A stretch of 32,000 bases of DNA. It comes from an uncultured Alphaproteobacteria bacterium (GTDB taxonomy: Bacteria; Pseudomonadota; Alphaproteobacteria; RF32; CAG-239). The first letter of the stretch is position 1; each line of letters opens with the position of its first letter. Below the pieces are notes generated by a model that saw only the letters and a program-made list of their open reading frames with translations, did not search any database and was not told where the DNA came from. The stretch covers positions 1 to 32,000 of the forward strand of contig CALXVX010000045.1 of the NCBI GenBank assembly GCA_944392215.1, given 5' to 3'. Below, piece by piece: positions 13,209-16,200 of the stretch. The position numbers and the translations under genes are program-made.

Positions 13209-16200
13209 ATGAATGATATTATGAAATATTTTGGTCAGCAGGTCTCTGGCGAATCTTTTGACCAAATTAAAATTTCCATCGCCTCTCCTGAGCAGATCCG
13301 TTCTTGGTCTTATGGTGAGGTTAAAAAGCCGGAAACCATTAACTACCGCACCTTTAAGCCGGAAAGAGACGGCTTGTTCTGCGCTCGTATTTTTGGTCCG
13401 GTAAAAGACTACGAATGTTTGTGCGGAAAATATAAACGCATGAAATATCGCGGCGTCGTTTGCGAAAAGTGCGGTGTCGAAGTTACTTTGGCAAAAGTCC
13501 GCAGAGAAAGAATGGGACATATTGAATTGGCCGCTCCGGTTGCTCATATTTGGTTCTTGAAATCTCTGCCAAGCCGTATTTCTATGATTACCGATATTCC
13601 GATGAAGTCATTGGAAAGGGTTTTGTACTTTGAAAATTATATCGTTATCGAGCCCGGTTTGACCCCGCTCGGCGTTAACGAGTTGTTGACAGAGGAACAA
13701 TACCAAGAAGCCATTGATGAATATGGTGAGGATTCTTTCCGTGCCGGTATCGGTGCCGAGGCTATCCGCGAGATCTTGGCTTCAATCGACTTGGAAGCAG
13801 AGCGCAAGGCTATTCGTGAAGAACTCAAGGATAATGCTTCTGAGGCTAAGCGCAAAAAGTTGGTTAAACGTTTGAAGATTATTGAATCTTTCATCGAATC
13901 CAACACCAAGCCGGAATGGATGATTTTGACCGTTCTGCCGGTTATTCCGCCAGAGCTGCGTCCGTTGGTTCCGTTGGACGGCGGCCGTTTTGCCACCTCT
14001 GACTTGAACGATTTGTACCGCCGCGTTATTAACCGTAACAATCGTTTGAAACGCCTGATTGAACTCCATGCGCCGGATATCATTATCCGCAACGAAAAGC
14101 GCATGTTGCAGGAATCTGTTGATGCTTTGTTTGATAACGGTCGTCGTGCACGTGCTATCACCGGTACAAACAAACGTCCGCTCAAATCTTTGTCTGATAT
14201 GCTCAAAGGTAAACAAGGTCGTTTCCGTCAGAACTTGCTCGGTAAACGTGTTGACTACTCCGGGCGTTCGGTTATTACCGTCGGGCCTGAGCTTAAATTG
14301 CATCAGTGCGGTTTGCCTAAGAAAATGGCTCTGGAATTGTTTAAACCTTTTGTTTATGCAAAACTGGAACTCTATGGTCACGCTACAACTATCAAAGCAG
14401 CCAAGAGAATGGTTGAAAAAGAACGTCCGGAAGTTTGGGATATCTTGGAAGAAGTTATCCGTGAGCACCCGGTTCTCTTAAACCGTGCGCCGACTTTGCA
14501 CCGCTTGGGTATTCAAGCTTTTGAGCCTGTATTGGTAGAAGGAAAGGCCATTCACTTGCACCCGCTCGTTTGTACCGCGTTTAACGCCGACTTCGATGGT
14601 GCCCAAATGGCGGTTCACGTTCCGTTGTCTATCGAGGCTCAGTTGGAAGCTCGTGTTTTGATGATGTCTACCAACAACATCTTGTCTCCGGCTTCCGGTA
14701 AACCGATTATCGTTCCGACACAAGATATGGTCTTGGGTATTTACTACCTGACTTATGATGCCGACGGAATGAACGGCGAGGGTATGATCTTCTCTGATTT
14801 CAACGAAGTTTTGTTGGCCTTGAATGAGAAGGTTGTGGATCTGCATGCCAAAATCAAATGTCGTATGGAATACATCAACGATGAGGGCAAATTGGTAAGA
14901 GGGTTGGTTGAAACCACTCCGGGACGTATTATCGTTTCTGAAACTTTGCCTAAACATGAGAATGTTCCATTCTCTTTGGTTAACCGCTTGCTGCGTAAGA
15001 AAGAGATTGGGGAAATCATTGATACCATTTATCGTCATTGCGGACAGAAGGAAACCTGCTTGTTTGTTGACAAGATTATGACTCTTGGCTTCCAAAACGC
15101 TTGCAAAGCCGGTATTTCTTTCGGTAAAGATGATTTGATTGTTCCTGATGCCAAGAAGACCTTGATTGAGGAAACCGAAAAGCAGGTTAAGGAATTTGAG
15201 GAGCAATACCAAAACGGTTTGATTACCAAAGGCGAGAAATACAACAAGGTTGTTGATATTTGGGCTGCTTGTACGGATAAAGTTGCCGATGAAATGATGA
15301 AAAACATTTCTAAGACCGAGCATGGCTACATTAACTCTGTTTATATGATGGCTCACTCCGGTGCTCGTGGTTCTGCCGCTCAAATGCGTCAGCTGGCCGG
15401 TATGCGCGGTTTGATGGCGAAGCCCTCAGGCGAAATTATCGAACAGCCGATTATCTCTAACTTTAAAGAAGGCTTGACCGTGCTTGAGTACTTTAACTCT
15501 ACCCACGGTGCTCGTAAAGGTTTGGCCGATACGGCTTTGAAGACCGCTAACTCCGGTTACTTGACTCGTCGTTTGGTCGATGTTGCCCAAGATGTGGTTA
15601 TTACCGAGACAGATTGCGGAACAGAGCGCGGTATTATTGTTCGTCCGGTCGTGGATGGCGGTAATGTCGTTGTTTCTATCGGTGAACGTATTTTGGGTCG
15701 TACCATCCAAGAGGATATTGTTCATCCTGAAACCGGTGAGGTTTTGGTCAAGAAAGGTAAGCTGATTGATGAAAACGATGTCGAAGTCGTTGAGGCTGCC
15801 GGTGTTGAACAGGTTAAGATCCGCTCTGTACTGACTTGCGAAAGCAAAGATGGCGTTTGCGCCGCCTGCTACGGCCGTGATTTGGCTCGCGGTACGCCGG
15901 TTAATGTCGGTGAGGCTGTGGGTGTTATTGCCGCTCAGTCAATTGGTGAACCTGGTACACAGCTGACCATGAGAACCTTCCACATCGGTGGTGCGGCACA
16001 AAAAGGTGCTGAGCAGGCTTCTGTCGAAGTTCCGTTCGCCGGTGAATTGAAATTGGAGAACAACCATACGGTTACAGACTCTGAGGGACATCTGATTGTT
16101 TTGTCTCGTAACTGCGAAATCGTTATTGTTGACTCTCAGGGACGCGAGAAATCTCGTCACCATGTTCCTTATGGTACTAAGATTTTGGTTGCCGAAGGAG

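What the first reader, a model, noticed from the sequence alone, without database searches (positions are those of the whole stretch)
14583..14618. rpoC encodes [12 protein letters not shown]: the third catalytic Mg2+-binding aspartate is alanine
What the sequence shows:
- In the rpoC frame, 14583-14618 reads aac gcc gac ttc gat ggt GCC caa atg gcg gtt cac, which is [12 protein letters not shown].
- The third Asp position (residue 465 here) is GCC. That is one A-to-C change from GAC.
- Everything around it is conserved ([41 protein letters not shown]).
- The 1381-codon ORF is intact and shows the same strong codon bias as rpoB, so the gene does not look like a decaying copy.

Established knowledge: in all characterised multisubunit RNA polymerases this motif is NADFDGDQM. 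Its three Asp (E. coli beta' D460/D462/D464) hold the catalytic Mg2+, and substituting them severely impairs catalysis.

Possible explanations:
- A consensus or assembly error.
- A minority or engineered allele.
- A functional second rpoC elsewhere in the genome.
- A genuinely unprecedented active-site configuration.
Basis: partly seen in the sequence, partly recalled or inferred. Interest (0 to 1): 0.85.

Follow-up and report, generated by a model that had tools for sequence, protein, structure and literature searches.

The report
Probable base-call error in rpoC
The RNA polymerase gene in this window does read alanine where an essential magnesium-binding aspartate belongs. Three other assemblies of the same species read aspartate there, so it is most likely a single-base error in one metagenome-assembled genome, not new enzyme chemistry.

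Summary
Window 14583-14618 (+) translates to [12 protein letters not shown] inside an intact 1381-codon rpoC, and codon 465 (14601-14603) is GCC. The same protein is in a public collection from one NCBI contig of 37,474 nt, so the Ala is in the deposited sequence.

It is a singleton at every level I could test:
- 130 of 130 full-length relatives (90-97% identical) have Asp.
- 119 of 119 matches in reference genomes have GAC.
- Three independent assemblies at about 97.5-98.7% rpoC nucleotide identity read GAC, GAT and GAC. Their rpoC differs from the window's by only 2-3 residues, always including this one.

rpoC shows no relaxed selection. dN/dS is 0.026-0.049, the same as between relatives. 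Position 14602 is the window's only private change in the compared rpoC region (14592-17351) that is not at a third codon position.

The change is A>C. On the other strand that is GGT>GGG, the strongest known Illumina systematic miscall. Two unrelated metagenome contigs carry the same GAC>GCC change as isolated cases.

Verdict: almost certainly a consensus or base-call error, or at best an unfixed deleterious variant. Reads were not available, so this is not proven for this sample. Interest is low.

The parts
14602..14602 (+). The single base at issue: C here, A in every comparable sequence. It is the second position of rpoC codon 465.
   Evidence: It is the only variable site between 14000 and 15300 among four same-species sequences that is not a third codon position. 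In 14592-17351, the stretch all four sequences cover, it is the window's only private change out of 20 that is not at a third position.
14601..14603 (+). Codon 465 of rpoC. GCC (Ala) stands in place of GAC or GAT (Asp). This is the third Asp of the Mg2+-binding triad, equivalent to E. coli beta' D464.
   Evidence: for the translation. for the role of D460, D462 and D464 in coordinating the catalytic Mg2+.
14583..14618 (+). The NADFDG(D>A)QMAVH active-site motif as flagged.
   Evidence: 130 of 130 relatives have NADFDGDQM. 119 of 119 matches in reference genomes have GAC.
14598..14606 (-). Sequence context on the minus strand. The canonical sequence 5'-TTGGTCACC-3' reads TTGGGCACC here, a GGT>GGG (T>G) change.
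   Evidence: Read directly from the sequence. GGT with T miscalled as G is the strongest Illumina systematic-error motif (PMC3295828).
13209..17354 (+). rpoC (RNA polymerase beta'), 1381 codons plus stop. It is intact and under strong purifying selection.
   Evidence: TIGR02386 scores 1845 bits against a cut-off of 963.5. dN/dS against relatives is 0.026-0.049. It differs by only 3 aa from the full-length same-species rpoC in L139.
9013..13188 (+). rpoB (beta subunit), immediately upstream in the same operon. The 1391-aa form starting at 9013 is the one held in the public collection.
   Evidence: TIGR02013 scores 1873 bits. The exact look-up found the 1391-aa form. dN/dS is 0.023-0.056. There is no excess of lineage-specific changes.

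Best explanation
Position 14602 is most likely a wrong base in the consensus of one metagenome-assembled genome. The organism's real rpoC most likely reads GAC (Asp) there and encodes a normal RNA polymerase.

The likely mechanism is inferred, not shown. The Asp-Gln pair GAC-CAR puts GGT on the complementary strand, with the T opposite the middle A of the Asp codon. GGT read as GGG is the best-documented strand-specific Illumina miscall. At a thinly or unevenly covered site, such reads can outvote the correct ones, and the assembler then writes GCC.

Shown: the base is unique to this record, three same-species assemblies have Asp, the gene is under normal strong constraint, and the same change recurs as isolated cases in unrelated contigs.

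Inferred: the sequencing platform, the coverage, and that reads from this sample would show A.
For: 1. 130 of 130 full-length relatives at 90-97% identity carry NADFDGDQM. D465A is the query's only residue that breaks an otherwise invariant column.
2. 119 of 119 matches to the flanking 29-mer in reference genomes have A at this base.
3. Three independent assemblies of the same species have Asp.
   - L130 (Logan, SRR21431843) reads GAC. Its last 920 aa differ from the window only at 465 and 1278.
   - L139 (ENA ERZ16268217, also in NCBI) is full length and reads GAT. It has 85 nucleotide but only 3 aa differences.
   - L141 (Logan, SRR29999955) reads GAC, with 79 nucleotide and 3 aa differences.
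4. There is no relaxed selection. rpoC dN/dS is 0.026-0.049 between window and relatives, against 0.016-0.054 among relatives.
5. In 14592-17351, 19 of the window's 20 private nucleotide changes are at third codon positions. 14602 is the exception.
6. No compensating active-site changes are visible. The window's other rpoC residues unseen in relatives lie at variable columns, and lineage-specific changes in rpoB are no more numerous than in relatives.
7. The change matches the GGT>GGG systematic error on the minus strand.
8. A degenerate scan of 241 million metagenome records for [12 protein letters not shown] found two hits, both GCC. One is an otherwise intact rpoC only 58% identical to this one. 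The other is a garbled, frameshifted contig. The change therefore recurs sporadically rather than in a clade.
Against: No reads or coverage figures for this MAG were available, so the error is not demonstrated for this sample. The three same-species assemblies differ from the window by about 1-2.5% in rpoC, so they are other strains or samples, not re-assemblies of the same reads. The rest of the window does not look like a noisy consensus: its private changes behave like real synonymous polymorphism. So the error would have to be an isolated event. The sequencing platform is unknown. The GGT context follows automatically for any GAC before CAR, so it makes the mechanism plausible without being independent proof.
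Confidence: 0.86

Rival explanations
1. The Ala allele is real but not fixed. It would be a recent deleterious or lethal mutation, captured because the consensus came from very few genome copies. Possible sources are a low-coverage population, an amplified low-input or single-cell library, or DNA from non-growing cells.
For: The window is a distinct strain with many real private synonymous SNPs, so private variants are being captured. Each same-species sequence also has one or two private changes outside third codon positions in rpoC, at least one of them an amino-acid change.
Against: The private amino-acid changes in the other sequences are conservative, such as D802N, T842S and A1278V. Loss of a Mg2+ ligand in the only catalytic subunit should not reach majority frequency in a growing population. 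The severity of single substitutions is from my recollection of Sosunov et al. 2005 (NAR 33:4202), which is not held in the library.
Confidence: 0.09
2. The allele is real and tolerated because a second, canonical rpoC elsewhere in the genome supplies the active enzyme.
For: Nothing positive. The rest of the MAG could not be retrieved, so this is not excluded.
Against: This copy sits in the canonical rplK-rplA-rplJ-rplL-rpoB-rpoC operon, syntenic with relatives. It shows full purifying selection. Same-species assemblies carry Asp in this same gene, upstream of the shared uvrC region. A redundant copy would be expected to show relaxed constraint.
Confidence: 0.02
3. The allele is real and functional. 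This would be an RNA polymerase that holds its catalytic Mg2+ with two aspartates plus water or another ligand.
For: The ORF is intact and codon usage is normal. In the E. coli Michaelis complex, D464 contacts only Mg-A, while D460 and D462 bridge both metals. It is therefore the least connected of the three.
Against: No other member of the species, genus or wider clade has it. There are no accompanying substitutions. Within the species, rpoC differs by 2-3 residues in total, which gives no sign of adaptive remodelling. The triad is described as invariant and universally conserved.
Confidence: 0.03

Closest known systems
Bacterial RNA polymerase beta' subunit (RpoC, NCBIfam TIGR02386) with the NADFDGD Mg2+-binding aspartate triad (E. 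coli D460/D462/D464)
   Same: Full-length match well above the curated cut-off. Canonical operon position. All surrounding motif residues are identical. Purifying selection is the same as in relatives.
   Different: As deposited, the third Asp is Ala. Three same-species assemblies have Asp.
Illumina systematic sequence-specific error at GGT (T miscalled as G), Meacham et al. 2011, BMC Bioinformatics 12:451 (PMC3295828)
   Same: On the minus strand the change is exactly GGT>GGG. The paper reports that such errors are strand-specific, replicable, and at some sites affect all calls in one direction.
   Different: The platform, depth and strand balance of this MAG are unknown. Such errors rarely reach the consensus of an assembly unless coverage is low or one-sided.
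Engineered substitutions of the aspartate triad (E. coli beta' triad mutants; the YonO 3D>3N mutant)
   Same: Same residue class. The YonO mutant with all three Asp changed to Asn forms complexes but is completely inactive (PMC5467207).
   Different: Those are laboratory constructs. Here there is a single Ala in an environmental consensus sequence, with no evidence that any protein of this sequence exists.
Sporadic NADFDGAQM variants in other metagenome contigs (ULRL01001880.1 = L128; Ga0137411_1353828 = L129)
   Same: Same codon change, GAC>GCC, before CAG, in otherwise unremarkable (L128) or visibly error-laden (L129) contigs.
   Different: They come from unrelated lineages. L128's rpoC is 58% identical to the window's. 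They do not form a clade with the window.

Membership tests
RpoC / RNA polymerase beta' (TIGR02386) | Full-length match to the equivalog model above its curated cut-off | tested here: met
   1845.1 bits against a cut-off of 963.5.
RpoC / RNA polymerase beta' (TIGR02386) | Located directly downstream of rpoB in the rplKAJL-rpoBC cluster | tested here: met
   rpoB is at 9013-13188 and rpoC at 13209-17354. nusG, L1 and L10 lie upstream. The locus is syntenic with L120-L127.
RpoC / RNA polymerase beta' (TIGR02386) | Invariant NADFDGD triad that binds the catalytic Mg2+ | tested here: not met
   The deposited sequence reads NADFDGA. The feature is met in three same-species assemblies and in 130 of 130 relatives, which is why I attribute the failure to the base call.
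RpoC / RNA polymerase beta' (TIGR02386) | Strong purifying selection, as expected of an essential single-copy gene | tested here: met
   dN/dS is 0.026-0.049 against relatives. Against same-species L139 there are 85 nucleotide but only 3 aa differences.
Illumina GGT>GGG systematic miscall | The substitution is T>G on one strand, with GG immediately 5' on that strand | tested here: met
   On the minus strand, TTGGTCACC becomes TTGGGCACC. The motif is defined in PMC3295828.
Illumina GGT>GGG systematic miscall | The variant is confined to reads of one direction, with the mate or other strand showing the true base | not testable with these tools
   No read data were accessible.
Illumina GGT>GGG systematic miscall | The data were produced on an Illumina instrument, at depth low enough for the error to win | not testable with these tools
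   The MAG's record, platform and coverage could not be retrieved. The look-up of the window's rpoC was not on record.
Decaying or pseudogenised rpoC copy | Frameshifts or stops, or a raised dN/dS | tested here: not met
   The ORF is intact. dN/dS equals that of relatives. The window's only private change outside third codon positions in 14592-17351 is 14602.

The most novel reading that the evidence does not exclude
The Ala is real and at high frequency in a living population. That would mean a free-living alphaproteobacterium whose only RNA polymerase works with two of the three universally conserved Mg2+-binding aspartates.
Probability: 0.03. Interest if true: 0.9.

Novelty: not a real feature. 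Interest (0 to 1): 0.08.

Why it matters
If it were real, it would overturn the view that the NADFDGD triad is indispensable in all multisubunit RNA polymerases. As it stands, its value is practical.

- It is a clean example of how a single consensus error in a MAG can mimic a striking biological finding.
- The Asp-Gln codon pair GAC-CAR in this motif is inherently a GGT site on the opposite strand, so this false variant can be expected to recur. Two more cases were found in metagenome contigs.
- Scans for broken catalytic residues in metagenome-derived proteins should check same-species assemblies or reads before scoring such hits.

Tried and rejected
- **Reference-genome DNA scan.** I used a 29-mer with N at the site. 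It did give 119 of 119 GAC.
- **Exact 56-nt species-specific pattern in metagenome contigs.** No hits.
- **Protein search with residues 425-640.** I hoped to find same-species fragments. It returned only short fragments, mostly 60-70% identical and none from this species. 118 of 120 were canonical.
- **Look-up of the window's own rpoC contig.** Not on record, so the rest of the MAG, its coverage and any second rpoC could not be examined.
- **Exact look-up of revertant proteins (A465D, with and without A1278V).** Not in the collection.
- **What finally worked.** I anchored on the faster-evolving neighbours, uvrC and a 103-aa ORF, and on members of the uvrC cluster.
- **Pseudogene or decaying copy.** Rejected by dN/dS.
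- **Generally noisy consensus.** Rejected. Lineage-specific and private changes are not in excess and are almost all synonymous.
- **Strain-mosaic junction at the site.** The SNP patterns around 14602 show nothing beyond the break at the start of L130.
- **Sosunov 2003 and 2005 papers on single triad substitutions.** Not held in the library, so the severity of D464A alone rests on my memory.

Full report
**1. The observation**

Window 14583-14618 on the + strand reads aac gcc gac ttc gat ggt GCC caa atg gcg gtt cac, which translates to [12 protein letters not shown]. It lies in frame in the ORF 13209..17354, 1381 codons with no internal stop.

That ORF is rpoC. It scores 1845 bits on the NCBIfam equivalog TIGR02386, against a cut-off of 963.5. 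rpoB lies directly upstream and scores 1873 bits on TIGR02013.

The exact 1381-aa protein, Ala included, is in the 15-billion-protein collection. It has an NCBI source and sits on one contig of 37,474 nt. The Ala is therefore a property of a deposited metagenome-assembled genome.

**2. The surroundings**

The window is ordinary housekeeping DNA of an uncultured alphaproteobacterium, about 40-48% G+C. Close relatives are named "MAG: Alphaproteobacteria bacterium" by their sources.

The gene order is nusG, mscL, ribosomal L11, L1, L10 and L12, rpoB, rpoC, small ORFs, uvrC, pgsA, a response regulator with its histidine kinase, an SNase-like protein, obg, and a PHO4 phosphate transporter with a PhoU-like protein. 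The L11 and L12 genes are placed by synteny only. This order is syntenic with relatives. No tRNA genes or Rfam families were found. So this is the canonical rpoC locus, not a stray paralogue.

**3. How unusual the Ala is**

- Among 130 full-length relatives at 90-97% identity, all carry NADFDGDQM.
- The window's rpoC has only three residues not seen in any of them. D465A is the only one in an otherwise invariant column.
- A scan of reference genomes with the flanking 29-mer and N at the site gave 119 matches in very diverse bacteria, all with A.
- The nearest relatives first found are only about 85% identical in nucleotides. They are other species, and they use GAC.

**4. Same-species evidence**

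This is the decisive part. I anchored on faster-evolving neighbours: the exact uvrC protein, an exact 103-aa ORF, and members of the uvrC 90% cluster. That recovered independent assemblies of the same species. Three of them reach the site.

| Locus | Source | Codon 465 | rpoC span compared | Differences from the window |
|---|---|---|---|---|
| L130 | Logan assembly of SRR21431843 | GAC | last 920 aa (contig starts at window 14591) | 40 nt; 2 aa (465 and 1278) |
| L139 | ENA ERZ16268217 scaffold_2112, also in NCBI | GAT | full 1381 aa | 85 of 4143 nt; 3 aa (A465D, D802N, H1075R) |
| L141 | Logan assembly of SRR29999955 | GAC | last 1049 aa | 79 of 3147 nt; 3 aa (465, 842, 1075) |

Between 14000 and 15300, every variable site among these four sequences is a third codon position except 14602. 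In 14592-17351, the stretch all four cover, the window has 20 private nucleotide changes. Nineteen are at third positions, and 14602 is the exception.

**5. Selection**

Pairwise Nei-Gojobori dN/dS for rpoC is 0.026-0.049 between the window and relatives. Among the relatives themselves it is 0.016-0.054, with one within-species pair at zero. rpoB behaves the same way.

Lineage-specific substitutions in rpoB, rpoC, uvrC, pgsA and the response regulator are no more numerous in the window than in relatives. So three things are absent:
- any sign of a decaying gene;
- any sign of a generally noisy consensus;
- any accompanying active-site change that might compensate for a lost ligand.

**6. What the residue does**

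In E. coli numbering, Mg-A is coordinated by beta' D460, D462 and D464. Mg-B is coordinated by D460, D462 and the NTP phosphates. The -NADFDGD- motif is described as universally conserved (PMC13198411; PMC5856549).

Changing all three Asp to Asn in the distant homologue YonO abolishes RNA extension (PMC5467207). From memory, single substitutions in E. coli (Sosunov et al. 2005, NAR 33:4202) severely impair all catalytic activities. That paper is cited, but it is not held in the library, so I could not check it.

**7. A plausible source of the error**

The change is A>C on the + strand. On the minus strand, the canonical 5'-TTGGTCACC-3' becomes TTGGGCACC, which is GGT>GGG.

Meacham et al. 2011 (PMC3295828) report several relevant points:
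- GGT with the T miscalled as G is the strongest motif at Illumina systematic-error sites.
- These errors are strand-specific and replicable.

Any Asp-Gln pair written GAC-CAR creates this minus-strand GGT, so the third Asp of the motif is intrinsically exposed. In this window the first two Asp codons (GAC-TTC and GAT-GGT) are not.

A degenerate scan of 241 million metagenome records for DNA encoding [12 protein letters not shown] found two hits, both GCC:
- L128 is an otherwise intact rpoC only 58% identical to this one.
- L129 is a garbled, frameshifted contig.

So the same change recurs sporadically in unrelated lineages, as expected of an artefact. It does not form a clade.

The platform and coverage of the window's MAG are unknown, so this mechanism is an inference.

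**8. Weighing the explanations**

- **Consensus or base-call error (0.86).** It fits every observation. It needs only one wrong base in 32 kb.
- **A real but unfixed deleterious variant (0.09).** It could have been captured from very few genome copies and cannot be excluded without reads.
- **A second functional rpoC (0.02).** Untested, but it fits poorly with full constraint on this copy and with Asp in the same gene of same-species assemblies.
- **A two-aspartate active site that really works (0.03).** It has no support beyond the intact ORF.

There is also a selection effect. A first-stage reader scanning many windows for broken catalytic residues will preferentially surface the rare consensus errors that happen to fall on them.

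**9. Limits**

I had no reads, no coverage figures and no access to the rest of the MAG. The same-species assemblies are other strains, about 1-2.5% divergent in rpoC. They are not re-assemblies of the same sample.

The GGT context follows automatically for GAC-CAR.

**10. Verdict**

Interest is low.

Noticed in passing
L128 11387-11422 (+) (ULRL01001880.1); L129 1574-1609 (-) (Ga0137411_1353828): Two unrelated metagenome contigs also encode [12 protein letters not shown], with the same GAC>GCC change before CAG. L128's rpoC is otherwise intact, a 974-aa ORF running to the contig end. L129's reading frame is garbled around the motif.
   Followed up: partly
L130 start = window 14591; L131 start = window 17214; L135-L138 start within the last ~270 codons of rpoC or downstream of it: Assemblies of this species repeatedly break inside rpoC. 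L130 begins 11 nt upstream of the disputed base. A likely cause is k-mers shared between species in this highly conserved gene, which tangle the assembly graph. That makes rpoC a weak spot for consensus quality in metagenomes.
   Followed up: no
window 6360-8784: About 2.4 kb lies between rplL and rpoB that is absent from relative L120. It holds three ORFs: 6456-7004 (+, 182 aa), 7189-8097 (+, 302 aa) and 8145-8768 (-, 207 aa). None has a Pfam or NCBIfam match. The first has a weak match to an uncharacterised PHROG (phrog_4245, E = 2.5e-7).
   Followed up: partly
window 17355-18802: A strain-variable cassette of small ORFs lies between rpoC and uvrC (73 aa, 103 aa and 110 aa, with no family matches). 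Window 17636-17850 diverges from L130, which has a 64-aa ORF instead. L139 and L141 carry a different set there, including a 463-aa ORF on the minus strand.
   Followed up: no
protein P0214 (322-aa metagenome fragment): Another aberrant active-site motif in a metagenome fragment: NADFDGDELDVH instead of NADFDGDQMAVH. It suggests that odd variants of this motif turn up at a low rate in fragmentary assemblies.
   Followed up: no
window 1015-1497 (+): An mscL gene (large-conductance mechanosensitive channel) sits between nusG and the ribosomal L11 gene. The same arrangement is seen in relative L127. It is an uncommon interruption of the secE-nusG-rplKAJL cluster.
   Followed up: no
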